From assembly GCA_043228905.1 (NCBI GenBank), contig JBHGNT010000022.1, positions 5,518,001 through 5,582,000 of the forward strand: 64,000 nt of DNA. Reading direction: 5' to 3'. Position 1 is the first letter of the stretch, and every line of letters starts with the position of its first letter. Position numbers and translations under genes: made by a program. The notes beneath the pieces were generated by a model that saw only the letters and a list, made by a program, of their open reading frames with translations, had not been told where the DNA came from and searched no databases. Below, in pieces: positions 4,224 through 62,524 of this stretch. This DNA is from Azolla caroliniana (taxonomy: Eukaryota > Plantae > Polypodiophyta).

Positions 4224-4254
4224 TTTCTGTGTCGTTTCGCTTTGATACGCACTT

Positions 4255-4582: not shown

Positions 4583-4585
<3 letters not shown>

Positions 4586-5718: not shown

Positions 5719-5724
5719 GGACAC

Positions 5725-6851: not shown

Positions 6852-7631
6852 TGTCGTAGTGTAGGTTGCACACTATGTGGAAATTATATTTTTGTCCCTC
6901 CGGATAGAGAATGGAGTGCTCGGTGAGAACCGGAAGAAAACGGCATACCGGCAAGGAGGAAAACGGCATACCGGCAAGGAAGAGTCGGATAAAGAGACAT
7001 AAATGTAAAAAAAAAAAGGGAAATACTCACTACTGCACAGGGCATGATTCGAACTCTGCACCTCCACGTTGACAAACCCCAACCTTACCATTACATTAAC
7101 TTATCTTAAGTGTTTTAAATATAGATTTAATACGTATAAGACCTTTATTTATGCATACCTTTATTAAAAGGTAAATCGTGTATTTTTTTAATATATGAAA
7201 AAGACGAGACACTAAAAATAACTCATGCACATCTAGCGTGCATGAGCCCTATACTTAGGAAATAAAAAAAGCATCACATGCACATTTAGTGGACATGAAC
7301 ACTTTTTGTAAAAAAAAGCATGAAGCCATGCTTAGCTCTTCCTTCCTTATATAAGGAGGAGAGAAATATATAAAGGGTTGTTGATTATTTGGATTAAGTA
7401 TTAATCAATACAAAAATTATTCGTGGGATTCACGATTTATACATCTACTTCTCTCTTAACACCCTAAGTACCAATTAATATAGTATACTCGTGTGATTCA
7501 CGAGTTTCTTATCTTTCTCTTTGCTATTTACTCATAATTAATCTCTATCTCACGAACTTCTTTCTCCTAGTCTAAGACCTCTGTGGTTCCCACCCGACTC
7601 ACGCAACGATCCGGAGCCGAAAGGCACGACA
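6852..7631 (+). repeat. Gypsy B 5' LTR (780 bp)
   Basis: Near-identical to 15475-16277. Confidence 0.95.
7041..7100 (-). promoter_or_regulatory. Antisense tRNA-like A-box/B-box module in the gypsy B LTR (second copy about 15687-15746)
   Basis: Minus strand reads TAATGTAATGGTAAG ... GGAGGTGCAGAGTTCGAATC. Confidence 0.55.
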
Positions 7632-7635
7632 CAGT

Positions 7636-7652
7636 TGGTGAACCCGACGTGA
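7636..7652 (+). promoter_or_regulatory. PBS complementary to the tRNA-Trp 3' end
   Basis: TGGTGAACCCGACGTGA, 4 bp after the LTR. Confidence 0.85.
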
Positions 7653-7669
7653 AGACGGGTGGCAAGGAG

Positions 7670-13911: not shown

Positions 13912-13916
13912 AAACC

Positions 13917-15487: not shown

Positions 15488-16277
15488 GTTGCACACTATG
15501 TGGAAATTATATTTTTGTCCCTCCGGATAGAGAATGGAGTGCTCGGTGAGAACCGGAAGAAAACGGCATACCGGCAAGGAGGAAAACGGCATACCGGCAA
15601 GGAAGAAAACAACATACCGGCAAGGAAGAGTCGGATAAAGAGACATAAATGTAAAAAAAAAAAGGGAAATACTCACTACTGCACAGGGCGTGATTTGAAC
15701 TCTGCACCTCCACGTTGACAAACCCCAACCTTACCATTACATTAACTTATCTTAAGTGTTTTAAATATAGATTTAATACGTATAAGACCTTTATTTATGC
15801 ATACCTTTATTAAAAGGTAAATCGTGTATTTTTTTAATATATGAAAAAGACGAGACACTAAAAATAACTCATGCACATCTAGCGTGCATGAGCCCTATAC
15901 TTAGGAAATAAAAAAAGCATCACATGCACATTTAGTGGACATGAACACTTTTTGTAAAAAAAAGCATGAAGCCATGCTTAGCTCTTCCTTCCTTATATAA
16001 GGAGGAGAGAAATATATAAAGGGTTGTTGATTATTTGGATTAAGTATTAATCAATACAAAAATTATTCGTGGGATTCACGATTTATACATCTACTTCTCT
16101 CTTAACACCCTAAGTACCAATTAATATAGTATACTCGTGTGATTCACGAGTTTCTTATCTTTCTCTTTGCTATTTACTCATAATTAATCTCTATCTCACG
16201 AACTTCTTTCTCCTAGTCCAAGACCTCTGTGGTTCCCACCCGACTCACGCAACGATCCGGAGCCGAAAGGCACGACA
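15475..16277 (+). repeat. Gypsy B 3' LTR (803 bp)
   Basis: Preceded by PPT GGAGGGGGCGAG; carries one extra 23-bp unit compared with the 5' LTR. Confidence 0.95.
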
Positions 16278-16281
16278 ACGT

Positions 16282-18529
16282 AGTTAAGGATAAAGAGAAT
16301 TACCAAAAGCATTTGCATGAGTATAAAAGGCTTATTCAAAGAAAGAGAAGAATATGGGAAGTTACTCAACAATTTATCCAAACGCAAGAGAAAGCACATG
16401 CATGTGCTAAATTTTGGGGAAATCTAAAGGGAAAACGTGTTGAGAGTTATGGTGACTTAACTCTTCACGACTTGTCTATGCATTGTAAGAATTTATATGA
16501 GTTATCTCTTGCCGGAAAGATGATGTGTTATGGTTCTCTTTCACATATGCCTCCCTTCTTTACAATTGAAGATATATGCATAGGACTTAAGAAATTGGCC
16601 TCTCGAAAGGCAAGCGATCTTCAATGTATAAAGGCTGAAATGCTCAAATGGACGGGAAAGGAAGCACATATATGGATAAGCGATATGTTTAATGATGCAT
16701 TGCAACATGGTATGCCGTACGATTGGACTACAAATTGGATCAAACCTTTACATAAAGGTGGAGATATAAATAATGTAAACAACTATCGAACCATCATGGT
16801 TGGCTCATTAATGGCAAAACTATTTGGATGTATAATGGAATCAAAGATAAGTGTATGGGCTGAAAAAAGTGGTAAGAGAGCTTATGGGCAAGCTGGCTTT
16901 CGGAAACACCATAGCACCATTGATCACCTTATCACCCTTCAAGTATTAATGGAGGAAAGTCGCCTTAGAGGTAAAGGTTTATATTGTTGCTTTGTAGACT
17001 TCAAGAAAGCTTTTGATATGGTACCTTGTGAGCATCTTTGGAGGCGAATGGAAGAACTTGAGGTGCCAAGCGAATATATGCTTGCAATTTCCCGAATTTA
17101 TGAGAAGGTTATATGTTATGTGCGCATGAGAGATAAACTTTCAGATTTTTTCAAAAGCACTATTGGTGTTAAGCAAGGATGCCCACTCTCGCCAACACTA
17201 TTTGGTTTATGCATTGATGAATTGGAAGAAATGGTTACCAAGTTTGCAAAGGAAGAATGTGTTGAAGAAGTTGCCATTGGGAATGTTGTGATTATGCTTT
17301 TGCTATATGCAGATGATGTAGTGCTTTTTGCAAATACTTTAGGAGATGCACAAAAGCTTATGAAGGCATTGGAAAATTTTTGCATGCATACTAAATTAAG
17401 TGTCAATAGCTCTAAAACAAAGATTATGCTTGTGAAGAGCCAAAAACGAGATAAACCATGCATTGTGTACAACAATGAGCCACTTGAATGTGTGGAAAGC
17501 TTCAAATATCTTGGCCTTGAAGTTCCTTCAAATCATAGATGGAATGAATGTGCTACACGCCGCTTAGAGGCGGGCAAGCGAGCATACTATGCATTTGAGA
17601 ACACATGCAATCTTGGAGATATTAAGTGTTGGGTCCTCAAGAAATATCTTTTCGACACTTTGGTGACACCGGTTCTTCTCTATGGGATGGAAGTATGGGG
17701 CGGTAGCATCCCTAAATCTATGTGGAAAGAGTTTGAAAATGTCCAAAAGCATTTTCTTACCAAGTTTCTACAAGTTAAGAAACAAACTCCCTACACCCTC
17801 CTCCTCCTTGAGACGGGATCGCTTCCCATTGAGATCATGGCCATGGAAAGGGTTGTTGAATACATTCTTAAGGTTCAAAAACGTCCCTCACATCGACTTC
17901 CTAGAATTGCGTGGGAAACAAGCAAAAAGATCCAAAAGACACATAAAAGCAAAATTTTGTGTTCCGGTTGGATGCAAGATATAGAAAAATGGTTTGGTAG
18001 ATGGGATGCAAGACACTTGCTTCATGATGCATCATTAGATTCCTCTGTAAATGAGGCATTTTTGCAACGCCAATGTATCATGACATGGGACAAATGTGGA
18101 GGCTCACGCTTCACACATTATACTACACATGTTGCACCTAACTACAAAACCATATTCTTTGCGAAACGGGGAAATTGTACACATCCATACATGTTAGAGC
18201 CCATACCGTTATCTTCCATTCGAACCATTGCTTCCATGCGACTTAGCTCACATGCATTGCGATGTGAAACAGGGCGTTGGGGTACAAGTTATGAGAGTGG
18301 TCAGCTATGCACACTTTGCCCTAAACAAGTTCGTGAGTCTGAGTATCACACTTTGATACAATGCTCTGCCTTTGATCATATTCGACCATGCTTTCCACAT
18401 CTCTTCGATCAAGCCCAATCTTTGCATGAATTCCTCTCACAACCACAATGTGCACTCTCGATTGCAACATTCATTGGTAAAGTTCTTGAACATCGAGAGT
18501 CACTACTCACTTTCACACGTATCACGTGA
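16282..18529 (+). CDS. LINE ORF2, 3' part: reverse transcriptase and C-terminal CCHC-type domain
   Basis: NYRTI, QAGFR, FVDFKKAFD, GVKQGCPLSP, YADD, FKYLG, SSHALRCETGRW, CTLC..H..C. Confidence 0.95.
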
Positions 18530-23330: not shown

Positions 23331-24279
23331 CCATGCAAAAACATCCTTATATTGGCATAATAACTTTACTAATTCATGAGCATATCCTTAGCTATTCATG
23401 AGCACCATCTTCTGTCTAGTGTCATGCCCTACAAGATTAAGTTCTTCCATTGTTGAAAGTTTTACTCTTTGAGATACTTGCATCTCTTTTTCCATTGCTT
23501 CTTGCTGATTTTACAATTCCTTCAAAGATTTAGTATCTAATTGATGAAGCTGGTCCTCTATTCCAAGATCCTCATTATTGATGTAGTGCTAATAATTTCT
23601 ACTACATCAATTTAGAACAATAGTACAATTCTTGGGTTTTCCTCTAAATATTGCTCGATTTCACTGTCTTCTAAGCTTTCCATCATATTGATCAATTATG
23701 CATACAGAGGCACCAATTTCTTTTTGGTTAATAAATTTTCTTGGGTAGAGACTCTTACTTTTTTCTTGCCTCTTTAGAATGAGATGAAATTTTTCTACCA
23801 ATTTTGCTTGATATTAGCAATTCGAAACCATGGTCGGCCAAGTAGCAATGGGTATGCCACTGGTGCATCTAACTTTAGCACTACTGCCGATATGTGAAAC
23901 TAGTGTCCCCGAATTGATACTTCTAGTCATCAAATTAGCCATATGCTCGTACTAAACTCGTTGTCGCGAAGATGCCCGTGCGTACGTGCTTCACTTGAGC
24001 AGGACCACCGGGGTCTCGAACCGGGGAGGATGTTTGCAAAATTGTCAAAAAGATGACGATCTATATGTAGGAGTTGAGCAAACTTAAAGAAATATGAGAA
24101 AGCACATTTGTTCAGTAATATACATTGGTAGGAGGGAGAAAAATACAGAGATCTCTACTATTTACATGAGGAGAAAGTCACTCTTTATAAAGGCCAAGAT
24201 CTGGCCGTTGGGCTAACTAGCTGTTGAAACTAACTAGCCGTTATAACTTTTAAACATTCTCAACACTCCCCCTCAAGAT

Positions 24280-37246: not shown

Positions 37247-37682
37247 CCTCCCCTGCCGCTCTTCACATCGGGTTCACCAAAAGATGTCACGAAGATGCGC
37301 GTGAGTGCATGCTTCGCTTGAGTGGGACCACCGGGGTTTGGGACTGGGGAGGACGTTCATGAAATTGTCGAAAAGATGATGATGTGTATGTAGGAGTCGA
37401 AGAAACTAATGTCACACTTGAGAAGATCGAAGATTTTTATACTTGAGAAGAATATAGATGTCAAGAAGAAGAATAAGAACAATATTATATTATTATTGAT
37501 GATGATGATGATGATCTCCAAATTGATCCCCCTCACACAAGCCCAACTAGAGGCTTTTATAGGTTTCTCCATGCTTGTGACATGCACAAAACCATGGGCT
37601 AAAACCATGGTTTTGTGCACACGGTTTTGCTTATGACATACACAAAAGCATGGGCTTATACAAAATCTAAAGCACTTAGTAG

Positions 37683-37737
37683 TAGCTTTAGTGGTAAGCT
37701 AATTGCCTCCTATCTAGGAGGTGCAAGGTTCAAATCT
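37683..37737 (+). promoter_or_regulatory. tRNA-like A-box/B-box module, antisense within the gypsy G LTR
   Basis: TAGCTTTAGTGG ... GGTTCAAATC, with D-arm-like and anticodon-arm-like hairpins. Confidence 0.65.
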
Positions 37738-39001
37738 TATTTGCACCCCTCTATACACACTCAATGCCATTAGGCCCTAGGTTTATTTATTATTGATTTA
37801 TTTTCATTTTTACAAGTATTTGTGAAATGTGTGTGTATCCTCACCTTTTGACTTTTTCTCGCCCTAAACACACCACATCACGACATCGTATCAGCTAGTC
37901 TTAGTCCAAATGGGCACACTTCCCAATCCATAATTCCAAGTCGATCATAGGTCATCTTGTTTATGAAATTTGACTCCTAGCCCACCATCGATGATGCAAT
38001 GCAAGATCTCTTGGCCTCGTATGATGACTTTTATTGAAGGAATCTACTCATCAATAATTGTCGGCCTCTTTATTGGATTAGTAAAATTGACTGTCACCTG
38101 GTCCAACTCCATTTTCGTGATTATGTGTGCGCTATTTTTTTTCGTAAATTGAGCCCACTAATTTTAGTAATCCTACCAAAGATAATGTGATTTGGCAATC
38201 TGCCAAGACTTGCCATGTTTCATCCTCTGTTGGTGATTGTCTCGTTACTTCTTTTGATCGTATTTACGAATTTACTAGTGTGTCATTTAGTTCTTTATTT
38301 TCTTGTAACATTATGGCGACACTGTTCTTATTACCTTTGTCTACCCATTCTTTAGCAGCCTTTCGAAATGATTCATGTATTTCCCACTATGACTGCTTAG
38401 TTTTGCTTCGAGACATAACTTGCTAGACCATTGCGGTTACCATATTTACTATTGGGGCTTTACCTTTTTCCTTTGTCGGACACTGATTTGCATAGTGAGT
38501 GTCTTTTCTGCAGGTATAGCAAATAGGTTCAGTTGGCCCACTGGCCTCCCCTTTTTCATAATACGACTGTCAAACATCTTGTGGCTTTGGTTTGCCTCGG
38601 GCTCGAGAATTATATTTAAACTGCTTGGAATCTTTAGGTTTTCTCTTGTCATCTCGTCGTTCGTCAGTGAATCGACGATTATGTTGTCGATTGTAATCAT
38701 GCCTCCATTGCTCATGAGATCTTCTGTCATCCTGATGTCTTGAGCCTTTGTACAAACATCGATCATTCCTATCATAACAAGGTGAGTAATCACACTCATA
38801 TTTATGATGATTGTCCCTTCTATAGTCATCTTGATGGTCACTTTCCTTTTGATAATCATTGTGCCGTTCATCCCTTCGATAATCATCCCGCTGATTTCAA
38901 TCCGACTAAAAACGATCCTCATATCTCGACCGATTGTCTTCTCGAAACTAGTGCATTTGATGACTTTTGTCATCTATGCAATCGTTATGTGGTTCTATCT
39001 A

Positions 39002-40662: not shown

Positions 40663-43600
40663 TGTCGTGAAAAATCCATCACTACCTATGGATCGTGAGG
40701 CAGAACTGCCAGAGGCTTGGACCAGAAGGATTCAATGTTTTTAGCAACGTAAGCGAGAAAGTATTGAAGATAGATAGATGGATGAAGAGAGAGAGAGAGA
40801 TTGAGATAGAGATTGAACCCTTGATACATCACCATTAGGATACATCACCATTAGGATAACTCAGATCTTTGATTAAAGTTTCTTTTTTACTTAACTCCCT
40901 TCCCCCCTTACACATGCCCAACTATAGGCTTTTATGTTGGGAATTTGGTCCCTCCGGATGGGATCCGGAGGAGCTGGATCAGACGAGCAGGATGAAGGAA
41001 CTGGATCCGAAAGGGTTCCGGATGAGACCCGGAAACCGGATCGAGTGAATCTGGATGGATCCAATGCAAACCATATCCAAGGACATATGTATAAATATGT
41101 TTCATAGTGAGACCATCGAGGCTATATTTGTAAATAGTCCAAATGTCATATAAGTATAAATATGACTTAGGGCAATCACTTTATAGAGTGAAAGTGTAGC
41201 GAGATGAGATGTTGTATATTGTTATATACAAAGAGTGAGACAGAGATATAGAGATATAGAACTAGTTTTTTGTTCTAACCGCTGGTTTGGTGAAGACAGA
41301 GCTCGAGGTCGTTGCCTCTGAGTCTCACATTGTATTCCTCCCCTCATAGTCATAGTTGAAGTCTGTGGACCCCCTGGTTTTTCCCATTTAGGGTTTTCCA
41401 CGTTAACACCCTGTGTCATCTTTGTTTTTAAGTTTGTTCTCTTCCATTCGTTGTTTAAGAATCGATTGTGGCTAAGCACTATTTTTCGCACAAACTGGTA
41501 TTAGAGCAATCAAAGGAAATGGAAGAATCATTCGGTAGCATGTTCAAATCACCGGCTCCAACTACCCAGAGTGGAAGTCGAAGATGAGGGAAAAGCTCAT
41601 GGTGAAAGATCTCTCGTTGCCGATATAGTTTGGGGACAAGAAACCAGATAAGATCGATGCCGCAAGATGGGAGGTAATGCACATGAAGACAATGGAATAC
41701 ATCCGGTTCTTCATCAACATGAGCCTATATAACAACTTCAATGAAGAAAGAAAGGCCCATGTGCTTTGGGAAAAAATCGGCACCATGTTGGAGAGTAAAA
41801 ACGTCGTAAATCGGGTTTCCGTATTCCAGAAGTTAGTGAGACTCCGGTATTGTCTTCAATCTGGTATCAGAGCGAACAACATAGGAAATGGAAGAATCAT
41901 TCGGCGGCATGTTCAAGCTCACCGGCTCCAACCACTCAGTGTGGAAGTCGAAGATGAGGGATATGCTGGTGGTTAAAGCTCTGTTCTTGCCGGTTCAGTT
42001 CAGGGACAAGAGACCAGATAAGATCAATGCCATAATGTGGGAGGTGATGCACATGAAGACGACGGCATACATCCGGTGCTTCATTGACATGAGCCTGTAC
42101 AACAACTTTAATGAAGAGAGCAAGGCTCATGAACTCTGGGAGAAGATTGGCATGATGTTCCAAAACAAGAATGTCGTTAATCGGGTTTTGGTATTCCGGA
42201 AGCTAGTGAGGCTTCGGTACCAGGACAACTCCAGTATCGCGGAGCAGATGAATGCCTTCCAGGGGCTAATACATCAAGCAACCTCGTTGGAAGTACCTCT
42301 CGCGGATGAGGTACTCGCATTACTCGTGCTAGGTTCCCTCCCAGATAGCTGGGAGACGTTAGTTCTCACATTGGGCAACGCCGGGCCGGAAGGAAGTCAA
42401 TTGTCCCTAGCAAGGGTAAAATCAACCTTGCTAGATGAAGAAGCTCGCCGGAAGGACCAGGAGTCCGGAACCGATCCGAAGGACTTTGTCATGGAAGATG
42501 ACCATTAGCGAGGAAGAGGCCGGTATCAAAGTCCCCAAAACCGGGACAAATCGGGGACAAGGTTGAAGTCAAGGGGGAGGCCTACTTGCTTCTATTGTGG
42601 GAAGCTAGGGCACTTCCAGAAAAATTGTCGGCATTTCCGAAAAGAAAACGGAACAGATAGTCCTAATTCAAAGAAGGGTTCGGACCGGAAAGGCTCGGAT
42701 CAGAAGGCAACCTCGGCGATCACGACATGTGAAGAAGAACTGATGCTCTTGACCAAGGAGAATGAGTTAAACCTTGTTGGCCATGGCACAGTGTGGGTTG
42801 TCGATTCCGAAGCGTTGTTCCACCTGACACCGGACCAGAAATGTTTCTCATCCTACATAGCCGAAGATCACGGTTGTGTTTGGATGGGGAATGAAGGTAC
42901 ATGCCGAATTGTTGGCATAGGAGATGTGTGGTTGACGACATCAATCGGATGCAAATTGCTGCTGAAAGAAGTTCGACATGTTCCGGAGGTTCGGTTGAAC
43001 CTTATGTCAGCCGGTGGGCTAGATGATGAAGGCTACATGGGTAGCATACGGAACAAACTCATGAAATTCAACAAAGGAAGCCTGATCATGGCTCGAGCCC
43101 GGAAGATCAACACATTGTACCTGATGCATGCTCGGATATGCCGAGAAGAAGTGAACATAGCATCTGACACTGCCGGTGAGTTGTGGCACAAGACATTGTG
43201 CCATATCAGCCAGAAGGGAATGAGAAGATTTGCCGAAGACAACCTCATTCCGGAGGTGCAAGACGTGCATCTTGATAGGTGCACCGATTGCTCGGCCGGC
43301 AAGCAAAACCGAACCTCCTTTTGGTCAAGACCACAGATGAGACAGAATGCACCACTTGAGCTGGTGCATACTGATGTGTGTCAAGTCGACACGAAGTCAC
43401 ATGCCAGATCATAGTACTTCGTGACATTCATAGACGACCACAGCCGGAAGTTGTGGGTCTCACTGTTGGAGACAAAGGATCAAGTGCTATCTGTTTTCAA
43501 GGAGCTCCACGCGAGAGTGGAAAAAGAAACCAGTCGGAAGCCGAAGCATGTTCGAGGAGATAACGGAGGAAAATACCGCGGGTAGTTTGAGGAGTACGGC

Positions 43601-46600
43601 TAGTCGAAGGGAATCTAGCTCGAATTCACCGTGCAAAAGACGTCGGAACTGAATGGGTTGGCCGAATGGATGAACCGGACCATGATGGAGAGACTCCGGA
43701 GCATGTTGGCACATGGAAAGCTACCCAAGACGTTTTGGGTTGAGGCGTTGATGATGGCAGCCTATGAGATAAACAGATCACCCTCAGCACCTTCGTAAGG
43801 AGACTCACCACAAAAAGTATGGACTGGTGAAGATGTATCTTACTAGCATCTGAAGGTGTTTGGATGTCTCGCATATGTGCATGTCGCAAAGGACAAGAGA
43901 GAAAAGCTGGATCCGAAGTCCAGGCCATGCATATTCCCCAGATATGGCGATTATGAGGTCGGTTACCGGGTGTGGGATCTGGTCGACAAGAAGGGGTTCC
44001 GGAATCGGGATATAGTCTTCATGGAAGACATGACCATTGCCGCCTGTGAGTCGGAGAAGAAGGTGATGAACTCTGGATCATCCAATGAAAACCAGCTTGA
44101 GGGCACAAGGAATTACCCGGTTGAAAACTGGATGTTAGCCGGAAGCCGGATGACACTCGAAGAACCAGTCAGATTTAGAACAGAAACCGAATCAACTGAA
44201 GAAGACGACACCGGAACCGGACAAGATCCCGAATCGGATTCAAATGAGGAACAAATGGACGAACCAGTATTCAGAAACCAAGGATGAAGAAAACCTCTCA
44301 GAGAGAGAAGAGCCTTCCAGAGATTTCCGGATGTAGAGCATGTATTGCTGACCGATGAGGGGGAGCTAGAAAGCTTTGAAGAAGCAAAGAAGGACACCTA
44401 CACCTGCAAGTGATTGAGTGCCATGCAGGACGAGATGGATTCCCTGCATGAGAACCACACATATGAAAAGGCGGAGTTGCCGAAAGGAAAGAGGGCACTC
44501 CGGAATAAGTGGGTGTACAAGCTGAAACCAGGAGGCACTGGATATCCACCAAGGTACAAGGCCCGGATCCTAGTGAAGGGTTTCCATGAGAAGAAAGGTG
44601 TGGATTTCAGTGAGATCTTTGCCCCGGTAGTAAAGATGACATCCATCCGGACGGTATTGAGCATGGTGGTAAGCATGGACCTCGATGTAGAGAAACTGGA
44701 TGTCAAGATGGCATGCCTACATGGCGACCTCGAATGAGAGATCTACATGCATGAACTAGAAGGATTTGAGAGAAAAGGGAAGAAGCACTTGGTATGCCAG
44801 CTAATGAAGAGCTTATACGAATTGAAGCAAGCCCCCCGGCAATGGTACTGGAAGTTCGACTCCTTCATGACTGACCAAGGGTACCACAAGACGCAAGTGG
44901 ACCACTATGTGTTTGTGAAGAAATTTGGCGGAGGAGATTTCTTGATATTGCTCCTGTACGTGGATGACATGTTGATCGTCGGACGAGACCAAGTCAAGAT
45001 ACGAATACTGAAGAAGGTCCTAAACCGGACCTTCTCCATGAAAGACTTGGGTCCGGCAAGACAAATCTTAGGGATGCACATCATCTGGGACTGGAAGAAG
45101 AATCTATTGTGGTTGTCACAAGAAAAGTACATGACAAAGGTGCTTCAGCGGTTCAACATGTCGCAAGCAAAACCGGTTGGATCGACACTTCTGGCAAATT
45201 GGAAGTTGTCCGGAAAGCAGAGCCCGAAGACAAAGCCAGAGAAGTCAAATATGACGAAGATACCATATGCCTCTGCCATCGGAAGCTTAATGTACGCAAT
45301 AGTGTGCACCCGGCTGGATATTGCATATGTTGTCGGAGGAGTCTGCCAGTTCATGAGAAAACCATGAAGAGAGCAGTGGAATGCGGTTAGGTGGATACTC
45401 CAGTATCTGAAAGGCACCTCGAGTATGTGCCTCTGATTTGGATCCGGTAAACCCCAATTTGATGGATTCACGGATTCGGATATGTCAGTTGATGTGGATA
45501 CCAACCCGTCTACATCCTGATATGTCATGATTTATTCAGGGGGAGTTATATCATGGCAATCGAGGCTGCAGAAGTCCATTGTACTGTTGACATCGGAAGC
45601 GGAGTACATGGCAGCTATGGAAGCCGGCAAGGAGATAATCTGGATGAAGGAGTTCATCGGAGAGCTAGGGATCCGACAGGAGGAATTCCGGCTCTATTGC
45701 GACAATCAAAGTGCCATCCACCTTGCGAAGAATACGACCTACCATTCTCGAACCAAGCACATCCAAAGGAGATATCACTGGCTCCGGGAGAAGGTAGAAG
45801 ATCAAGACTTCATGTTGACGAAGATCCACACGGAGGAGAACGGATCGGATATGTTGACCAAGGTGCTTTCAACCGACAAGTTGGATGCGTGCCGAAGAGG
45901 GATCAGATTAACGAGAAATCCCGTGCTGGAGAGAAGGGGGAGTTTGTTGGGAATTCGTTCCCTCCGGATGAGAACCAGAGAAGCTGGATCGGATGAGCCG
46001 AATGAAGGAACCGGATCCGGAAGAGACCCGGAAACGAGATCGAGGGAATCTGGATGGATTCGGTGCAAACCGGATCCAAGGACATATGTATAAATATGTT
46101 TCATAGTGAGCCCATCAAGGCTATATTTGTAAATAACCCAAATGTCATATAAGTATAAATATGACTTAGGGCAATCACTTTATAGAGTGAAAGTGTAGTG
46201 AGATGAGATGTTGTATATTGTTGTATATAGAGAGTGAGACAGAGATAGAGAGATATAGAACTAGTTTTCTGTTGTAACCGCCGGTTTGGTGAGGATAGAG
46301 CTCGAGGTCATTGCCTCTGAGTCTCACATTGTATTCCCCTCTCATAGTGATAGTTGGAGTCTGTGGGCTCCCGTAGTTTTTCCCATTTAGGGTTTTCCAC
46401 GTTAACATCCTTTGTCATCTCTGTTTTTTAGTTTTTTCGCTTCCATTCGTTGTTTAAGACTTGGTTGTGGCCGAGCGCTATTTTTCCATGCAAAAACCAT
46501 GGGCTAAACCCACGGGCTAAAACCATGGTTTTGTGCCCACGATTTCTATATGTTTGCTTCTTACAAAATACTGAATATGAAAAGAAAATATACAAACTCT

Positions 46601-46813
46601 AAACCACTCAGTAGTAGCTTCAGTGGTATATAATTTGTCTCCTATCTTGGAGGTGCAAGGTTCAAATTCATATTTACAACACAAAATTTTACAAGGCTTT
46701 AGTCTTGTATTTACAAATGTTTAACTACATATTACACCTTTAGTCGACCTCCAATGAACCGATTGAACCTATAGACGATGTCGTTCATTTCACACTAAGA
46801 AATCTTCAAGACA
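40663..46813 (-). repeat. Trp-type gypsy LTR split by copia J (40663-40934 plus about 46488-46813)
   Basis: TGTCGTGA start and TTCAAGACA end; similar to 37540-37740 and to the reverse complement of 48700-48851; tRNA-like module at 46615-46669. Confidence 0.75.
40935..46488 (+). mobile_element. Copia J: degenerate element with a duplicated PBS-gag start
   Basis: LTRs 40935-41492 and 45945 to about 46488; PBS at 41496 and again at 41862; gag-pol from 41888 to about 45935; right TSD lost. Confidence 0.88.
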
Positions 46814-46815
46814 TC

Positions 46816-47541
46816 ATGCATCGTGATCCACCTATCTAATTGACCCGATCAATTCGTTTGTCCGGTCCGTCCATCCCGATCGGTTCCTTCCATCCGATCC
46901 GGTCCACATCCGATCAGTCTCGTCCTGTCCGGTCTGGTCCTGTCAATCCAGTTCCATCTGGATTCGTCCGGTCCGATCCGGTGTCGTGAAGATTTTCGAC
47001 AATGGTTGATTGGGATGCGAACCGAACCGGCTTGGGATGCGTCGACCAGCGATGGAACCGGCATTTGGCGACCAGCGACTGGCCGACGACGGAATCGGCA
47101 ACCGGTGATTGACCGGTGTCGGCAAACCCGGTTACTGGCATCCGGTGACCTCGGGATGCGGACCGAACCGGGCCACACTGAACGGATGTATCGTGATCCA
47201 CCTATCCGATTGACCCGATCAATTCGTTTGTCCGGTCTGTCCATCCCGACCGGTCCACATCCGATCGGTCTCGTCCTATCCGGTCCAGTCCTGTCTATCC
47301 AGTTCCATCCGGATTCGTCCTGTCCGATCCGGTGTCGTGAAGATTTTCGACAATGGTTGATCGGGATGCGGACCGACCCGGCTCGGGATGCGTCGACCAA
47401 CGACGGAACCGGCATTTGGCAACCAACGTCCGGCCGACGACAGAATCGGCAACCGGCGACTGACCGGTGTCGGCAAACCCGGTTACTGGCATTCGGTGAC
47501 CTCGGGATGTGAACCGAACCGGGCCAGATTGAATGGATGCA
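46816..47541. repeat. Tandem duplication of about 350-370 bp
   Basis: TCGTGATCCACCTAT at 46821 and 47191; ATG(C/T)A at all three junctions. Confidence 0.92.
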
Positions 47542-48851
47542 AATTGGACGGATTGGTTGGGTCGGTTGATCCCGGTTCATGGTGTTTTAAGGATATTTGG
47601 TCCAAAAGCCTAACAGTATTTTGTCATTTAAAAGGGATATAAGCAAGACCTAAACCTTGCACCTCCAAGATAGAAAAGCAATATACTTACCAATAAGCCA
47701 AGTCATGTCCTTAAAGTTATATTTTTATCATTATAGTTTTACTTGAAAATTCTCATATGAGAGCTTAAATGAGTGACATGAGCACCAACCAAATGGCAAA
47801 CATGCATCATGCATTTTATGCATGTCTTGTACCCCACATGCATCATATGCATGGGGGCATCTATAAAAGAGTGGATGAAAAAGAAAAAAAGGGGAGCAAT
47901 GTATGAATCAAGAAATTAAATGTAAGAAATTCGTTATCCAATTGATGTATCAATCTTGTTCTTTAAATCTAAAGTCAGGAGTTCAATCTTAATCTCTGAA
48001 AGGACTACACGCTCCCGAAAACAACGCTCGGCCACAATCGAGTCTAGGATCGAACATAGAAAAACGGGTAATGTATGCATGACACAGTTAAGAGAAGAGT
48101 AGACAGGATGTTTACGTGGAAAACCCAAACACGGGAAAACCACGGCAGTCCACAGACTGCAAACTATCACTATGTTACAATATACAATAGATGAACACAG
48201 AGGCAACGACCTCTTGTTCACTGTCTTCGCCACAAGCGGCGGTTACAACAGAGACAACGTCCTCTTCGTCTCTCACTCTCTCTCTGTACACGGTTGCACT
48301 CAAATCTTGCACCAACAAGAATGACAACAACCCTACACTACACTAAGTTTGCCCTAAGTCATATTTATACTAAAATGACTTTTCGGCTATTTACAAATAT
48401 AGCCCCGATGGACTCTTAGAAACATATTTACGAATATGTCCCTTCATCCGGTCAGCAATCCTCACCGGGCCTGCATCATCTGGCGCTTGTCGAGCACTCG
48501 TCATCTGGTTCTCACCGGGCCTTCACCATCCGGCTCTTGCCGGGCACTCGTCATCCGGTTCTCACCGGGCCTTCCTTGCCGGGTACTCGTCATGCAGTTC
48601 TCACCAGGTCTTCCGTTGCTGGGTACTCCACATACGGTTCTCACCGGGTCTTCACCATCCGACGGGACATGTTTCCTAACAATCTCTCTCAATCTAAAGT
48701 CAAGCGTTCTATTTTATCTCAACCTCTCTCTCTCTTTCAATCTATCTTAAATACTTTCTCGCTAAGGATTGTACAAACTTTGAGTCCTTCTGGTTCAGAA
48801 CCCCGGTGGTTCCGCCTCACGATCCGCGCATAGTGACGGATCTTCACGACA
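47333..48851 (+). repeat. Trp-type gypsy solo LTR (its start is also duplicated at 46982) containing a copia solo LTR
   Basis: TGTCGTGAAG..CTTCACGACA; TSD CCGG; antisense tRNA-like module at 47647-47700. Confidence 0.75.
47997..48681 (-). repeat. Copia-family solo LTR (685 bp)
   Basis: TG..CA; TSD ATCTC. Confidence 0.95.
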
Positions 48852-48884: not shown

Positions 48885-51021
48885 TCTTTTCATACCAAGA
48901 TAGTAAAATAGTATCTTTACTATTATTGTTTTATATTGTTTGTGAATAACCACACTCGATTTTGTATATTCCTCACAAATTTCACACGATTGCCGAAAAT
49001 CTTCGCAACATCATTTGGTGAACCTAACGTGAAGAGTGGTAGGGGAGGATGAAGATGGAATTTTCACACGATTGCCGAAAATCTTTGCGACATCATTTGG
49101 TGAACCTAACGTGAAGAGTGGTAGGGGAGGATGAAGATGGATGAGGAAAATCTCATGAAGGCAATGCCAAAGATGATTATGGAATTTTGGAGAGAAGGGA
49201 AAAGACGAGATGTGGGCCAACAAGCCATCGAAAGCATTGTCGAGCGAGTCAGATGTTTCAACGGGGGTGAAGTGCAAAATTTTCTAAAGTTGTACAATGC
49301 CGAGATGAATTCTAGAGGTGTGAATGAAGCAATGATGCTGGAGTACTTTTGTTGAGTGGTGGCCGAAACAATCTACAAAGACATGAAAGAGCTTCAAAAC
49401 CTTCACGATTCGTGGGTGTCCTTCAAAGAAGCTTTACGAGGGGTAAATACGAGTTTGACCAATGGGTGTAATCGACGAAGACCCACCAGAGTGCTATGCC
49501 TGCATTGGTTAAGTTTGTGTCACTTCGCTAAAATCTTAGAGTGGGATCAAGGATTGGTGGGGGCGAGTAAAGTCCTTATGTTCGTAAAGTCTGTTGTTGA
49601 AAGGAAAGGAAGGCATTTGGAATCCAACTTGAAGATGACGATGGATCAAATGGCCTCATCGACAATTGGGCCGAAGATGAAAGATTATGTTGGTGACATG
49701 ACAAGAGGAAGATGGGAATCTTGTCGACATCATCACGACCCATGAGGGAAGATCAAAGAGGAACGGCATGCGACAACGCGCCACCACTAAAGGAAGAGAG
49801 CTCGAAGTGGGGAGATAGGCCTTTGTAAAGGAGGCATATGAGATTGAAAAGGTGCAAGTCAAGGCCAAAGAGAAGCCTAGAATGGAGTTAAAACCGAGGC
49901 AATTGGTGATTAAGGAAGAAGAAACCTCCCAACAAAGGTGGAGTAAGGATACGGCCAATACAAAGGCCTAGGTTTGGTATGACAGTACCACGAGAGAAGG
50001 TGTGGAACAAGCCACCTTCTCGACTTAAGGAAGAACGACGGTCAAGAAAAGGACTGAGACTCGTGAGCAGGAAATGCCACTTTAAGAGTGGACGAGCATT
50101 TCGGAACATATTTTCTAAAAGTCTACAATGCCGAGATGGATTCGAGAGGTGTGAACGAAGTTATGAGGCTGGAGTGCTTTTGTCAGGTGGTGGCTGAACC
50201 GATCTACAAAGAGGTGAAAGATCTTCAAGAAGCTCATGACTCATGGGTGTCCTTCAAGGTAGGTCTATTGGAGGCATACAGATACAAGAAACCAAAGGAA
50301 CGAGGTTTGCGCGAGCTCGACCAATGGCTATCATCAATAAAGACCCATCAAAGTGCCATGTACACATTCCTAGAAATTGAGCATCATTTTGCTCAACTCT
50401 CGGAGCGGGAACAAAGATTGGTGGGAGTGGATAAGGTCTTATTGTTCGTGAAGTCGATCGATCAAAGGAAAAGGACGATCAGCGGACTCAAACTCGAAGA
50501 AGATGACGGTGCAAATGGCCTTACCGAGGATTGGACCAAAGCGGAAAGAGTATGTCGACTACACGATAAGACGAAGACGAGATTCTCATCGGCAACAACA
50601 CAAGCGAAGAGGGATAGTGAAAGGAGGATGGGATGTGACTACCATCTACCACCTAAAGAAGAGAGCTTCAAGAGGGAAGGTTCGTAAAGGAGGCATATGA
50701 GAGTTTAAAGGTACCAAAGATAATCTTATAATGGAACCAAAACCGATTCAATTGGTGATCAAGGAAGAAGAGACCTCCCAACAAAGGTGTAGTAAGGATA
50801 CGGCCAATACGAAGGCCCAGGTTCGGTACGACAGTACCACGGGAGAAGGTGTGGAACAACCACCTTCTTGACTTATGGAGGAACAACGGTCAGGAGAAAG
50901 ACTGGAGACTCGAGAGTGGGAAATGCCACTTTAAGAGTGGACGAGCATTTCGGAACATACGTTGTGTCCAAAATATCGAGTGATGAAGTTGCAAGCATGA
51001 ACAAAGCTTGCGTGATCAAGG
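48885..51021 (+). mobile_element. Trp-primed gypsy fragment: LTR end, duplicated PBS and tandemly repeated degenerate gag
   Basis: TGGTGAACCTAACGTGA at about 49016 and about 49098; gag similar to 36345-37246, present twice. Confidence 0.78.
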
Positions 51022-51890: not shown

Positions 51891-52429
51891 TGTTACCCGG
51901 ACAAAGGGGCAGTCAGTCAAGTGGAGAAGTGTCGGAGCCAGAAATTTCTGAGTCGTAGTCGGATCAATAAAGAGGATCGATGAGGCAGCATTTTGCCAAA
52001 TATAATTAAAAACCGAAAATATAGTTAGTTACAGATTTTGTAATTCTTGCCGTTATGGCAGTATGTTTCTTGATGAGGAAGTCCTTTCGGTTGCCTATAA
52101 AAGGAATCGAAGGCATTGTAAAAACTATTGTTTATTCTAGTAAAATATAAGTTAGTTGTAGGAAATTTCAGTGTGCAATTATTTCTTCTAATCTATTTCC
52201 ATCTTAAGGTAACTATATTACATAAGTAACAATCTCGGTGTATGCATAACATCCATATTATTACAGTAACTTAATAGTCATTCGCCTAACCACAATTCAT
52301 TGATAGAACTTTGGGAAACAATGTTTGACTTATATTGTGTCGACAATATAGTTTATTGTTGGCCGGACAACACAATATAATTTTGGCACGCTCGGTTACA
52401 TCTGCAATTAGCAGAGAACAAGTCGAATG

Positions 52430-55400
52430 GATGTCATTTGGTCCGGATACACTAGTCGGTTGTAAACGTCCTCGTACACGTTCGGTTACAAAGAAAGTAG
52501 AAAAGGATTCTTCTATAGTAATACAACCAGAAACAAGTCAGAGGTGGTCTTCACTTCCTGATTTGTCTGCTAGTTAGTCAGACAAAAATCAGTCGGAAGA
52601 GGTATCATTTTACGATATCTAGAGTTTAAGACAATATGTCTTACCTGTATTCTAAATTTTGGGAGGGAGCTGATGCAGAAGCGCATGTTAGGGACTTCTT
52701 GACAACATGGGAAATAAACCATGGAGCTCAGAGGCTATCGATGGCAGCCGAGGACAAGTAAAAAATTGTTAAGTTTGTTTTGTCATTGGATGGTCAGTCC
52801 GCTAATTGGTTTGCATAGAATGGTTTCAGAGCGTTCGAAACTTTCGAACAGCTAACCAACAAATTTCGGCAATTATTTCATCATCAAATTCCTCAGAAGG
52901 ATTTGATAGCTCAATTTTATGCATTATATCAGGAGCCGCATGAAACGGTGTCATAGTTTGTCATCCGTTTTTAGAATTTACAACTCCGGATTTCCAGGTC
53001 AATTACGGATGACGAATTGAAGGATATATTTCTTGAAGCAATTCATGAACCATTACGAACAACATTAGTGGTGTTCGATTTCCGGAATCAGACAATCGAG
53101 CAAGTGGTTGATAAGGCAATTGCTATGGGTCGAAATCCAAAAAATGTGAGGGGTATGGATATGTCGGTGTTACATCATACCTTGCGAACTCTAGAGGAGT
53201 TGCAGTTTCGACAAGCAGTACAATGTACTAGTTTAAATACGGGGCATTTGTCAATAGAGTGCAGCTTACGAACACATTGCAGAATATGTCACTCTAAAGC
53301 CCATTCAGTGGAATAGTGTGAATATAATCTGTTTAACAAAACAACAGCACTGGTACGACAAAATTTTCTGGAAAATGCGTACCAAGATAATCATAATAGG
53401 TTCAACAATTGGTATCAAGAAGACAACCGACAATATGATTATAGGCAGAGTCAAGATTTTCAGCAAACATAGGGCAATAGTCGTCAACAACCAAAAGGAG
53501 GTCGTTATAAACAGAATCGACCTAATAGCAAAAAGTTCTACAAGCAAAAAGCATCACGACAATTTCAACATGATTCTCAGAGAGATAATCTAGATTCTAA
53601 TGAGAATGGAGGTCACCAATATGAACAAGGTGAAGGTAGCGGAACATTTATTCCTAACTGCTACATTTGCAGGAAGGATGGACAGTATGCAAATCAATGT
53701 CCGTCTAAATTAAAAGGAAAAGCACCCGCCGTTAATATGGTGATACCAGAAATTTAGCAAGTAACTACCAGGAGTAAAACTAAATAATCGGAATGGGAAA
53801 TTCAGGAAGCGATTAGGAAAGCAGCCAGGGAATGGGTGGAGGAAGCAAATAAAAATAATGTGTCCAGAATGTTGTAGGACAATGAGATAAACCAAATTAA
53901 CGATCTTCCCGGAACAACGGTAGTACAGGAACAAGATGAAGCTTGGAAAATCTTGACTGATTACCAAGTATCATTACCTTTGACAGGATTACTCAAATTG
54001 GTTCCACGATTTACGGAGAAAGTGGCAACTCTGATTACCCAAAACGGCACAGAACAAGTAGCTGTTAACTATAGTTAGCTTAGTAATAGTCCGACAATTA
54101 TGGATGAGCAGAATCCGTCCATTAAGGTCATAATTCATGGTAAAGAAATAGATGGTGCTATTGTCGATGGTGGCTCAGGAGTTAATGCAATTAATAACAT
54201 TACTTGTGATAAGCTCGACATTACCAAATGGGAAGCATGTCCATTTTGGTTGAGAATGGCCGATACCGGTACAGTACGGCCAATAGGATTATTGAGGTAA
54301 TTAGATGTCGTGTTAGGTGGTCACACTTTTCAAATATCGACAGTCGTGCTTCATCTGGAGGCTCCTGGAGCATATCCTTTGCTATTAGGATGGCCATGGT
54401 TAAAAACTACTAATGTTAAGCAAAATTGGAATCAGAATTTATTGACATTCCGAAAAGGAAAAACTAAAATCCGTGTGTCAACTTAAAATAAGATTACTAC
54501 AAGTAAGCAATGCTTGCCAATTCATGTAGAGGCCGTGAATATGATGGAAGGACTGGATGAAGTGGAGGAACATTAGTATTTCAATGATAACCCAAAAATT
54601 ATTCCCTTGTCCGAAGTAGATATATTACAAGCTCTGACATCGTACGTGGATCCACAGGAGAGTTTAACACTGGATGAGCAAACAATGAAAGAAATCCGAC
54701 TATAGCAAGAGGCTACCAAAAAGGAATTAAGGGTATCTCAACGAGTTCAGACTTCGGGATTAGAGGAGATAAATTTAGTAGAAGAAGATAACGTGCTTGA
54801 GCCAAAAACAGTTCTGATTGCCAAGGATATGTTGTTGGCTGATAAGCAACGGTTAGTCACTTTACTCAAACAATATAAGGATTTGTTTGCCTGGTCTTTT
54901 GAAGATATGAAAGGGTTAGATCCAACTTTCTGTCAACGCCAAATTAATCTGCATAAAGATGCGAAACCAGTTCAACAACGCAGATATCGTCTAAATCCTA
55001 ATTATGCAGTTAAAGTTAAAGAAGAAATAGATAAACTCTTGAAGGTAGGGTTTATTCGACTTGTTAAAAAAGCTACATGGCTGAGTCCAATTGTAGTTGT
55101 TCTGAAAAAGAATGGAAAAATTTGGGTATGTGTTGACTACCGGAAACTGAATGCAGCAACAGTAATGGATGCATTTCCATTACCATTTACAGATAGTATA
55201 TTGGATGTAGTAGCGGGTCACGAAATGTATAGTTTTCTTGATGGCTTTAGCGGGTATAATCAAGTAAGTATGCATCCGGAAGATCAAGAAAAGACAACTT
55301 TTGTCACGGAATGGGGCATTTTTGTGGCGGTGGTAATGATGTTCAGATTAAAAACAGCTCCAACCACATTCCAAAGGGTCATCCAGGAAATTTTTGCGGA

Positions 55401-57607
55401 GTACATTCTCGCAGTCATGCAAGTTTTCTTGGATGATTTTGCGGTTTATAGTCGGAAATCCGAACACTTTAAACATTTGCAACTATGCTTAGAACGATGT
55501 AAGAAAGGACGACTCAATTTGAATCCGGCAAAATGCACTTTCGGGGTTACAAGTGGAGCATTACTAGGTCACATTGTTGGTCAGGAAGGAATTGCAGTAG
55601 ACCCTGACAAGGTCAAAGCCATATTAGAGGCACCGGCACCAACAAACGCTAAGGGCCTTAGTTGGTTCTTAGGGCAAATTAGATGGCATAGTAGAATGAT
55701 TAGATATCTTGTTGATGTGGCCATTCCCTTACACACGGCGGTGCATAATACACCTTTCCAATGGACAAGTTTGGAGCAGGATGCGTACGATTGCCTCAAG
55801 AAAATGTTGTCTAAAGTTCTAGTGGTTCAACCACCTGATTGGAACAAACCATTCCATGTGTTCGTCGACGCATCGGATGTAGCAATCGGAAGTGCACTCA
55901 TGCAACTATCTGAACCAAGCTGGTATAGACCAGTTTACTACGCTAGTCGGAAACTTTCAATAGCAAAACGGAATTATTCGACGACCGAAGGGGAAGCTTT
56001 ACGAATGATTTACAGTATAAACAAATTTCGACTCTACCTTTTGGGCAAAAACTTTACATTCCATGTCGATCATTCTGCTTTACTCTATTTGGTTTCCAAA
56101 CAGGAATTAATGGGTAAGCTGGCACGATGGACACTATTACTGCAAGAATTTGAATTCGACATTCTACATTGACCAAGAGTACATCATGCAGTTGCTGATT
56201 ATCTTAGCTGACTAGAGTCAGGAGAAGAGGGCATAGGTGTGAAAGATGATTTTCTGGATGGGCAACTCTTTCGGGTGGACATAGTACATGTACACGAATT
56301 AAACGAAGACAGCGAGGATGCTTGGATTTCAGAAATGCCAATTTTTCTTACATCAAGGTTACCACCCAAGCACTTATCAGCAAACGAAAGAAAAAGATTA
56401 GCCGTCCGTAGTTGGAATTTTTGTTTGTTAAATGACACTTGGTATCATAAAGGAGCGGACAGAATTTGGAGAAGGGCAATACGACAATTTGACAAATCGA
56501 TAATTCTCCGAGAAACTCATTGTGGCATTGTAGGACATTATGCAGGTGAAACTACGACACGGAAAATATGGAGCAGTGGTTTATGGTGGCCTATTGTAAT
56601 GAAGGACGTAGTCGACTACTGTCGAAAATGTGATTAATGTCAGTGAATGGGGCAACCTACCGAAAAAGACAGAATGCCTTTGCAACTTGTCTTACCTTTG
56701 GAACCATTCCAGAAATGGGGATTGGATTTTGTCGGCCCATTTAAACCAGCCGCACTACGCACAAGCAATCATAGTCGCCACTAATTACTATACGAAATGG
56801 GCAGAGGCTAAACCCCTAAAAGACAATACGGCAGCCTCAACAGCCAAATTCTTATACAAAAATATATGGTGTCGGTTCGGATGTCCAATAGAATTGGTAA
56901 GCGATCAAGGTACACATTTTATTAATAAAATTGTACATGAGTTATCTACTTATTATGCAGTGGTGCATAAGAAAAGCACTCCGTACTACCTGCAAGCAAA
57001 TGGATTAGCGGAAACGACAAATAAAACACTACAGACAATACTTAAGAAGACAGTTAATGAAAATCGTACAGATTGGGATAAAAAACTCCATAGCGCCTTA
57101 TGGGCATATTTGACTTCATATAAAACATCTATCAAGTGCACGCCTTTTCGCATGGCTTTCGGCTTGGACACCGTAATGCCAATAGAATTCCAAGTTCCGA
57201 CACTCTGAATTCAAGCAACATAAAGGTTAGATGAGCTACAGTCGGAACAAATTCGGAAAGAAGGTTTGTTGATGTTAGAAGAAAGCCAGATACAAGCCAT
57301 GACGGATTTGGATCGGAAGCAACGACAAACGAAAGCATTTGTGGAGGGGCATCGTCGACAAACAGAAAGACAGTTCGAAATCGGAAAACCGGTATTAGTA
57401 TTTCAAACAAAAATGGGATCTATGCCTAGAAAGTTTCGGTTTCGATGGATAGGACCAATCTAGATCGTTCATAGCAAGAATGGGATGTATCACGTTGGCA
57501 CACTATCAGGCGAAATTTTACCGAAATGGGTAAATGGTTTTCGGCTCAAACCTTATCACGGGCCAATGCCGGAAAATCCATTTGCAATAGATTCCGTCGC
57601 AAAGTGA
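52430..57607 (+). pseudogene. Gypsy L gag-PR-RT-RH-IN
   Basis: IVDGGSG, CVDYRKLN, LDGFSGYNQ, FLDD, VDASD, SDQGTHF, NGLAE; many stops. Confidence 0.92.
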
Positions 57608-62479: not shown

Positions 62480-62524
62480 ATTATTACTTACATTAATAGT
62501 AATTGGTTCTATCCCCTAGGCACC

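What the first reader, a model, noticed from the sequence alone, without database searches (positions are those of the whole stretch)
37678..37746. Conserved antisense tRNA-like (Pol III A-box/B-box) module in Trp-type gypsy LTRs
Seen: TAGCTTTAGTGGTAAGCT (A-box; stem AGCTT/AAGCT), then hairpin GCCTCCT/AGGAGGT, then GCAAGGTTCAAATC (B-box/T-loop), with tRNA-like spacing of about 32 bp between boxes. The same module occurs at 46615-46669 (+), 47647-47700 (-, B-box degenerate) and 7046-7098 / 15692-15744 (-, GAGTTCRAATC). It is always antisense to its element, and the core GGAGGTGCA-x-x-GTT(C/T)RRRT persists even where neighbouring LTR sequence differs strongly, as in gypsy B. Known: A/B boxes recruit TFIIIC and Pol III and can act as chromatin barriers; Cassandra TRIMs carry a 5S-derived Pol III module in their LTRs. 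Inference: this lineage captured a tRNA or SINE head and may use it as an insulator, an antisense Pol III promoter or a small-RNA source. I do not recall a description of this.
Basis: partly seen in the sequence, partly recalled or inferred. Interest (0 to 1): 0.8.

Follow-up and report, generated by a model that had tools for sequence, protein, structure and literature searches.

The report
tRNA-gene promoter inside bryophyte retrotransposon LTRs
Many families of a jumping gene, likely from a moss, carry in their end repeats the two promoter boxes of a tRNA gene at exact tRNA spacing, conserved while the DNA between them drifts, and these boxes likely bind the RNA polymerase III factor TFIIIC to keep the element's own promoter open, which has not been tested.

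Summary
Real. All five window copies exist (chance 0.01), in U3 of Phygy-like gypsy LTRs (tRNA-Trp PBS, 4-bp NCGN TSD). In 80 related metagenome loci, 26 A/B-box hits lie in 50.7 kb of LTR (shuffles 1.2), 25 of them 53-54 nt long, which is tRNA spacing. A box, variable loop and B box are among the most conserved blocks of U3; the spacer drifts like flanks but keeps its length. 'Always antisense' fails: of 42 scored elements 17 have antisense, 5 only sense, 20 no module, and some LTRs carry 2-3. Hosts are full gag-pol elements that keep a Pol II TATA box. Best reading: a captured tRNA/SINE-type Pol III promoter kept as a TFIIIC-bound DNA element beside the Pol II promoter; binding and transcription untested. 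Pairing with the primer tRNA is disfavoured. Closest known: Helenus/Cassandra TRIMs and foamy-virus LTR Pol III cassettes. This scan noted tRNA-like LTR cassettes before in fungal and animal genomes. New variant of a known kind.

The parts
37684..37736 (+). Focal module in the 5' LTR of element B, tRNA positions 8-61 (53 nt), antisense to the element
37684..37694 (+). A-box-like word (positions 8-19; A14, T16, G18, G19 near-invariant across 24 antisense modules)
37697..37717 (+). 21-nt spacer (positions 22-42): sequence drifts, length kept
37718..37723 (+). tRNA variable-loop word (positions 43-48), conserved
37728..37736 (+). B box (positions 53-61)
37720..37747 (+). Hairpin enclosing the B box in this copy (z -2.7); strong in 9 of 24 antisense modules, in varying registers
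37554..37562 (-). TATA box of the element's own (Pol II-type) promoter, 122 nt from the A box, facing the other way
37285..37885 (-). 5' LTR of element B (TG...CA); TSD TCGT at 37886-37889 and 23958-23961
37262..37279 (-). Primer binding site of element B, Trp type
23962..24084 (-). Remaining end of B's 3' LTR (its U3 with the module is missing)
46616..46668 (+). Module in LTR C (46488-46812, - strand), antisense
40810..40858 (-). Degenerate sense-strand A/B relic (A-like word duplicated) in the downstream piece of LTR C beyond a nested copia
47647..47700 (-). Module in LTR D (+ strand), antisense, B box broken
47935..47990 (+). Possible degenerate sense A/B relic downstream of D's TATA (47861-47869); seen by eye, not a pattern hit
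7046..7098 (-). Module in the 5' LTR of element A (6852-7631), antisense; T11 run 29 nt past the B box; TATA at 7347
15692..15744 (-). Module in the 3' LTR of element A (15475-16277); LTR pair differs by 3 substitutions and one 23-nt indel; TSD ACGT

Best explanation
The module is the skeleton of a tRNA-gene (type 2 Pol III) promoter, kept by selection in the U3 of many Phygy-like gypsy families, and it likely works as a DNA site for TFIIIC that would hold the LTR's own Pol II promoter in open chromatin. Shown: tRNA geometry, conservation of the boxes over spacer and flanks, loss of the cloverleaf, position 120-250 nt outside the TATA box, 1-3 copies per LTR in either orientation, presence in full gag-pol elements, absence from other amplified families. 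Inferred: capture from a tRNA gene or SINE head; TFIIIC binding; a nucleosome-poor or boundary effect at the edge of the LTR. A short Pol III transcript ending at the downstream T run may be made as a by-product. The module is an accessory: families without it also multiply.
For: A loose A/B pattern allowing lengths of 48-55 gave 26 hits in 50,729 nt of LTR regions, 25 of them 53-54 long; 50 local shuffles gave 1.24 (max 4) and 193 kb of pol gave 8. The module's conserved skeleton, used as a search pattern, pulled 75 viral loci of which 71 are ARAGORN tRNA genes at that spot. In 8 A-clade LTRs pairwise identity is 0.89 in the B box, 0.71 in the A box, 0.56 in the spacer and 0.57-0.60 in flanks, with gap fraction 0 against 0.08-0.13; module blocks are the top four 9-mers of U3 in the 7-row set. 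In hundreds of Logan contigs of B-type LTRs (333 in X1, 207 in X13), 11 of 21 spacer positions vary in at least 8% of depth in a DNA run, against 1 of 19 at positions 43-61 (T60C, still consensus) and 0 of 7 at 14-21. Contig depth at the core is 78,000 against 2,000-14,000 in outer U3 (X1). Stems pair no better than shuffles (298/500), so the constraint is on DNA words, not on a fold. Sense copies and tandem copies (L024, L026, L043) fit an orientation-tolerant DNA site. T4 runs start 13-32 nt past the B box in 15 of 33 modules against 4-9 in other 20-nt windows outside the module, and are rare inside it. tRNA genes sit in nucleosome-poor DNA and TFIIIC has chromatin-organising roles at ETC sites (PMC11346459, passages).
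Against: No binding, chromatin or strand-resolved RNA data. 20 of 42 scored elements lack the module, among them high-coverage, intact-ORF contigs (L021, L022, L036). The B-box C56 is T in L004, L010 and window D, and L010 is a high-coverage contig. Modules were first gathered by motif, so cross-family box conservation is partly built in; the A-clade comparison and reduce but do not remove this, since contigs are laid by likeness to the core. Other U3 blocks are conserved too: the CATG-rich/TATA block is as deep, and positions 63-73, outside the B box, rank first in the A clade. The near-fixed A-B distance is tighter than TFIIIC is known to need (own knowledge), which the DNA-site model does not explain well. 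The focal copy has no near terminator (first T4 at position 126) and only 4 of 33 modules have CAA at -10 to -1. Barrier action of tDNA is documented in yeast and animals (own knowledge; the review PMC11346459 only points to other reviews), not in mosses. Modules are not independent: 8 of 33 come from one clade.
Confidence: 0.45

Rival explanations
1. The useful product is a short Pol III RNA (about 90-100 nt), mostly antisense to U3 of the genomic RNA, ending at the T run, which would tune the element's expression or host silencing, as foamy-virus LTR cassettes make small RNAs.
For: Both boxes kept at fixed spacing; T4 enriched just downstream and rare inside; A-rich upstream, T-rich downstream in 31 of 33 modules; a hairpin around the B box with z below -1.5 in 9 of 24 antisense modules; foamy-virus precedent with A/B-box mutants (PMC3993851, passages).
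Against: No shared fold; hairpins are 8-12 bp in differing registers; mean folding z of whole modules -0.6 against -1.5 for real tRNAs; spacer sequence is free; sense copies would give unrelated RNAs; the skew of antisense modules partly reflects the A-rich start of these LTRs.
Confidence: 0.2
2. A passenger: a SINE head or tRNA fragment inserted into LTRs and spread by amplification and LTR swapping, with no function; the apparent conservation comes from how copies were found.
For: Patchy on the integrase tree (at least 6 gains or losses, 9 changes with orientation); carried between families inside a swapped LTR piece (L027/L031 against L035); broken boxes in several copies.
Against: All 7 members of family F01 with U3 sequence in hand have it, with boxes far above spacer and flanks; C-to-T decay hits spacer cytosines (6-57% of depth) but not C49 or C56; length kept across integrases only 56-65% identical; no shared SINE body or poly(A) tail seen 3' of the boxes.
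Confidence: 0.15
3. A Ty3-like second primer-binding site: the genomic RNA's U3 carries the complement of the D and T arms of the primer tRNA-Trp and pairs with it.
For: Antisense orientation equals PBS orientation; Ty3 uses U3 segments that pair with the T and D arms of its primer (PMC5371799, passages).
Against: The PBS implies T at primer position 52, but the module has G in 19 of 24 and T in 1; positions 62-73 match the primer at 3.5 of 12 on average; positions 10-13 and 49-52 vary, leaving no long conserved complement; sense copies cannot pair. The full host tRNA-Trp could not be fetched, so its D arm was not compared.
Confidence: 0.07
4. The conserved words are sites for ordinary Pol II factors in the U3 enhancer and resemble tRNA boxes only by ancestry or chance.
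For: They lie in U3 next to CATG-rich repeats and the TATA box; conservation extends to 43-48 and, in the A clade, 63-73.
Against: Two words at exactly tRNA distance in both orientations and on both sides of the TATA box, with the tRNA invariants A14, G18, G19, G53-C61.
Confidence: 0.08
5. A mobile landing pad or decoy for elements that target Pol III promoters.
For: Lead from earlier scan notes on a fungal genome; nested copia insertions occur in LTRs C and D.
Against: The insertions lie about 128 and 297 nt upstream of the A box in C and D, and none in A or B; no shared distance, but n is very small.
Confidence: 0.05

Closest known systems
Helenus TRIMs (TRIMp3; Kojima 2024, PMC10886601; parts 1-4 of 6 of the text and searched passages read, supplements and figures not seen)
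   Same: tRNA-derived sequence inside LTRs, conserved around boxes A and B, no working tRNA, no role as primer, proposed origin by SINE2 insertion.
   Different: Helenus are non-coding elements of 311-1263 bp, thought to use the Pol III promoter for themselves; the only plant family is from Selaginella, with 5-bp TSD. Here the hosts are about 7-kb gag-pol elements with a TATA box, 4-bp NCGN TSD, and the module mostly points away from the element. The paper expects autonomous partners to use Pol II promoters; it notes other tRNA-like LTRs in Repbase but analysed only those under 1000 bp.
Cassandra TRIMs (PMC10853983, abstract start and passages; PMC10886601)
   Same: Plant LTR element with a captured Pol III internal promoter whose boxes stay conserved.
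   Different: 5S-derived (type 1), non-autonomous, replaces the Pol II promoter; here tRNA-type, autonomous host, Pol II promoter kept.
Foamy-virus LTR Pol III miRNA cassettes (PMC3993851, passages)
   Same: Autonomous retroelement with A/B boxes and T terminators in the LTR beside a Pol II promoter.
   Different: Those make hairpin miRNA precursors shown by experiment; here no conserved hairpin, tRNA geometry, mostly antisense, no transcript shown.
Phygy non-chromovirus Ty3/gypsy clade (Neumann 2019, PMC6317226; passages and supplement rows read)
   Same: tRNA-Trp PBS (81% of Phygy), 4-bp NCGN TSD, polyprotein filling the internal part, bryophyte relatives.
   Different: No LTR-borne tRNA-like module in the passages and supplement rows I saw; elements here are about 7.2 kb against 7.7-10 kb; tree placement with REXdb not tested.
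Ty3 bipartite PBS (PMC5371799, passages)
   Same: tRNA-complementary sequence in U3.
   Different: Ty3's segments match its own primer; this module does not match the primer implied by its PBS.

Membership tests
Type 2 Pol III promoter | A box (positions 8-19) | tested here: met
   T8 20/24, G10 19/24, A14 24/24, T16 23/24; G18-G19 served as anchor
Type 2 Pol III promoter | B box (positions 53-61) | tested here: met
   C56 21/24, A58 23/24, C61 23/24 in antisense modules; 9/9 in sense modules; broken in window D
Type 2 Pol III promoter | tRNA-like A-B distance | tested here: met
   G19-G53 distance 34 in 25 and 35 in 8 of 33; 25 of 26 loose hits 53-54 nt
Type 2 Pol III promoter | Downstream oligo-T terminator and upstream AT/CAA signals | tested here: inconclusive
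   T4 at 74-93 in 15 of 33, absent near the focal copy; CAA in 4 of 33; these flanks are weaker in non-flowering plants (PMC13578239, passages)
Type 2 Pol III promoter | TFIIIC/Pol III occupancy or a discrete transcript | not testable with these tools
   Only contigs were available
tRNA gene | Cloverleaf with paired acceptor, D, anticodon and T stems | tested here: not met
Helenus / TRIMp3 | tRNA-derived sequence in LTR with conserved boxes | tested here: met
Helenus / TRIMp3 | Short non-coding TRIM (311-1263 bp) | tested here: not met
   Module-bearing L002, L003, L028, L032, L043 have open gag (702-732 aa) and pol (1158-1241 aa) frames; RT, RNase H and integrase domains in L002, L028, L043
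Helenus / TRIMp3 | Pol III promoter drives the element's RNA | tested here: not met
   Mostly antisense, TATA box kept, T runs near; by anatomy only
tRNA-derived SINE (inserted copy) | Shared body, 3' tail and target-site duplication | tested here: inconclusive
   No shared body or A tail seen by eye in 70 nt downstream of 33 modules; TSDs not searched systematically; SINEBase not available
Phygy clade (host element) | tRNA-Trp PBS | tested here: met
   One PBS type in 4 window sites and 34 of 80 loci; naming it Trp rests on recall of the plant tRNA end and agrees
Phygy clade (host element) | 4-bp NCGN TSD | tested here: met
   ACGT (A) and TCGT (B)
Phygy clade (host element) | Placement with REXdb Phygy on RT/RH/INT trees | not testable with these tools
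   No REXdb sequences; nearest named homologues are from the liverwort Riccia sorocarpa, up to 59% over the full query
Ty3-type bipartite PBS | U3 segments complementary to the element's own primer tRNA | tested here: not met
   Positions 49-53 and 62-73 tested from the PBS; D arm not testable

The most novel reading that the evidence does not exclude
Autonomous bryophyte gypsy elements have repeatedly taken up tRNA-gene promoters and use host TFIIIC as a portable insulator, placing one to three sites around their Pol II promoter to escape silencing in the TE-dense regions where they land; this would be the first retrotransposon-encoded TFIIIC boundary in plants and would scatter thousands of such sites through the host genome.
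Probability: 0.3. Interest if true: 0.8.

Novelty: new variant of a known kind. Interest (0 to 1): 0.52.

Why it matters
If the boxes are bound, a plant retrotransposon uses Pol III machinery as a cis defence of its promoter without any protein of its own, and TFIIIC-based insulation, little studied in plants, becomes testable in a moss with natural controls: sister families with antisense, sense, tandem, broken or no modules. It also extends tRNA-type LTR promoters from miniature elements to autonomous ones. If the boxes are not bound, it remains a catalogued LTR motif.

Tried and rejected
No whole genome is held, so no genome-wide count. ARAGORN and Rfam gave no tRNA; RF00005 on locus records was not possible. 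No integrase relatives in viral contigs. A search for the host-type tRNA-Trp 3' half found 0 in viral and prokaryote contigs, so no donor isotype can be named; the triplets at the anticodon position vary widely. No RNA holder is listed on record. Runs guessed to be RNA held 7 (X17) and 5 (X19) low-depth contigs over the module, and X18 was judged probably DNA; contigs show no start, end or strand, so I draw nothing from them. A T arm shifted by one base was not significant (p 0.06). Literature: searches found no description of tRNA-type boxes in moss or autonomous plant LTRs; the library lacks most subscription papers, and I did not see the Helenus supplements or Repbase entries, where such LTRs may be listed. 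The HIV-1 U3 tRNA-like sequence is recalled; one search listed only papers that cite it. One insulator review was not held. Earlier scan notes from this genome concern a different lineage (tRNA end replacing the PPT) and were not used.

Full report
Setting. The window is a nest of plant retroelements: many copia copies, an L1-type LINE and several gypsy elements with one shared PBS type. Element A (LTRs 6852-7631 and 15475-16277) has TSD ACGT; element B (5' LTR 37885-37285 on the - strand, other end at 23962) has TSD TCGT. A tRNA-Trp PBS with a 4-bp NCGN TSD is the profile of the Phygy clade (PMC6317226, passages and supplement row). The nearest named integrase homologues are from a liverwort. 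A bryophyte host, likely a moss, is inferred. LTRs C (46488-46812, -) and D (about 47540-47996, +) are cut by copia insertions.

Observation. Each copy lies in U3, about 110-250 nt from the LTR start and antisense to the element; in A, B and D the TATA box lies 120-250 nt away on the other side and faces the other way. ARAGORN and Rfam call no tRNA.

Relatives. The integrase of A fetched the best 80 of 161 related metagenome loci, 49-99% identical. A profile from 15 seed modules, iterated, found 29 hits above 20 bits in window and loci, seeds included; the best shuffle score was 9.6. An independent loose pattern made only of A-box and B-box words gave 26 hits in 50,729 nt of LTR regions (19 antisense, 7 sense), 25 of them 53 or 54 nt long; shuffles gave 1.24 and 193 kb of pol gave 8. 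The conserved skeleton used as a search pattern retrieved 75 viral loci, 71 with an ARAGORN tRNA over the match; this shows tRNA geometry, not a viral origin.

What is conserved. In tRNA numbering, 33 hand-collected modules (24 antisense or unplaced, 9 sense; identical copies entered once) keep A14, T16, G18-G19 (anchor), T20-A21, G43-T47 and G53-C61. Acceptor, D, anticodon and T stems pair no better than shuffled partners, and RNAalifold finds no consensus pair on 19 of them. Among 8 A-clade LTRs the B box is 0.89 identical, the A box 0.71, the spacer 0.56 and the flanks 0.57-0.60; the G19-G53 distance changes by at most one base while most flanking 35-nt windows change length. Module blocks are the four best-conserved 9-mers of U3 in the 7-row A-clade set, with positions 65-73 first. 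Logan contigs of B-type LTRs from coded organisms show the same pattern: depth peaks at the core and at the CATG/TATA block, and variants of at least 8% depth in DNA runs fall on 11 of 21 spacer positions but on 1 of 26 positions in 14-21 and 43-61. Motif-based gathering and likeness-based laying inflate these contrasts to an unknown degree.

Distribution. I scored by hand the 42 of 80 integrase rows that had enough LTR sequence: 17 have an antisense module, 5 only sense (L037 and L039 are weak calls), 20 none; at least 6 changes of presence are needed on the tree. L024, L026 and L043 carry two antisense modules in U3 and one sense module past the TATA box; L015, L016 and L020 carry one sense module before it; L048 has antisense modules on both sides. 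Window LTRs C and D hold worn sense relics past the TATA region. In L027 and L031 the module sits in a swapped-in LTR piece of the L043 type, and the native LTR lacks it, so the pol tree tracks LTR history poorly. Module-bearing and module-free families both have open gag and pol frames. C56 is mutated in L004, L010 and D.

Transcription signals. T4 runs start at positions 74-93 in 15 of 33 modules, against 4-9 of 32-33 in other 20-nt windows outside the module and 0-2 inside it; the focal copy has none until 126, and CAA is rare. Such flanks are reported to be weaker in non-flowering plants (PMC13578239, passages). A hairpin round the B box is strong in 9 of 24 antisense modules, in different registers (for 8 of 33 modules one D-loop base was left out of the folded 5' segments). 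No usable RNA data exist here.

Mechanism. Shown: a type 2 promoter skeleton under constraint, without a tRNA fold, accessory, tolerant of orientation and duplication, beside a Pol II promoter. Inferred: TFIIIC binds it. tRNA genes lie in nucleosome-poor DNA, and TFIIIC organises chromatin at sites lacking Pol III (PMC11346459, passages). The commonest position, between the host flank and the enhancer/TATA, is where a boundary would help an element that lands in TE nests. I give this 0.45, a functional small RNA 0.2, a passenger 0.15, Pol II factor sites 0.08, primer pairing 0.07 and a landing pad 0.05. Primer pairing was tested from the PBS itself: it implies T52, the module has G52 in 19 of 24, and positions 62-73 match at 3.5 of 12 (model from PMC5371799). 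The tight A-B distance and the conserved 63-73 block of the A clade remain unexplained.

Comparison. Helenus TRIMs carry tRNA-derived, box-conserved sequence in LTRs, and the paper notes further such LTRs in Repbase that it did not study (PMC10886601). Cassandra does the same with 5S. Foamy viruses have working Pol III cassettes in their LTRs. The feature works like these in being a captured Pol III promoter, but it is not a Helenus: the hosts are coding elements with a TATA box and the module mostly points outward. Searches found no description for mosses or autonomous plant elements, within the limits of the library. Earlier scan notes record similar cassettes in fungal and animal LTRs and led me to the Helenus paper.

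Verdict. A real, selected feature and a new variant of a known kind; function inferred, not shown. Interest 0.52.

Noticed in passing
window 15437-15454 and 43 of 50 loci with a mapped 3' LTR start: A conserved short hairpin lies just 5' of the PPT across the whole lineage, with or without the module; possibly a plus-strand priming or packaging signal.
   Followed up: partly
L027 7016-7420, L031 860-1300: Chimeric LTRs: about 115 nt of one family's LTR, a PPT-like word, then another family's LTR start carrying the module.
   Followed up: partly
L001, L003, L004, L010, L032, L047 and window 7034-7044: An 11-nt block just past the B box (positions 63-73) is as conserved as the B box in the A clade; role unexplained.
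   Followed up: partly
window 48977-49141: Tandem duplication of the LTR end and PBS of element D (83 bp, 96%).
   Followed up: no
window 46816-47539: Two 370-bp tandem copies (87%) between LTRs C and D, with long open frames on both strands and no Pfam hit.
   Followed up: no
window 4789-6864 and 16217-18529: L1-type LINE with open ORF1, endonuclease and RT frames, split by element A, which itself holds a young copia (LTRs 99.3% identical).
   Followed up: no
window 7632-15474: Element A keeps gag and integrase but no RT or RNase H region; a copia sits at the break.
   Followed up: no
window 37534-37643: CATG-rich repeats and TATA block shared by many related families, as deep as the module in Logan contigs.
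   Followed up: partly
window 52000-57600 and 62500-64000: A second, degraded gypsy lineage with RT, RNase H and integrase; not examined for the tRNA-for-PPT feature noted elsewhere in this genome.
   Followed up: no
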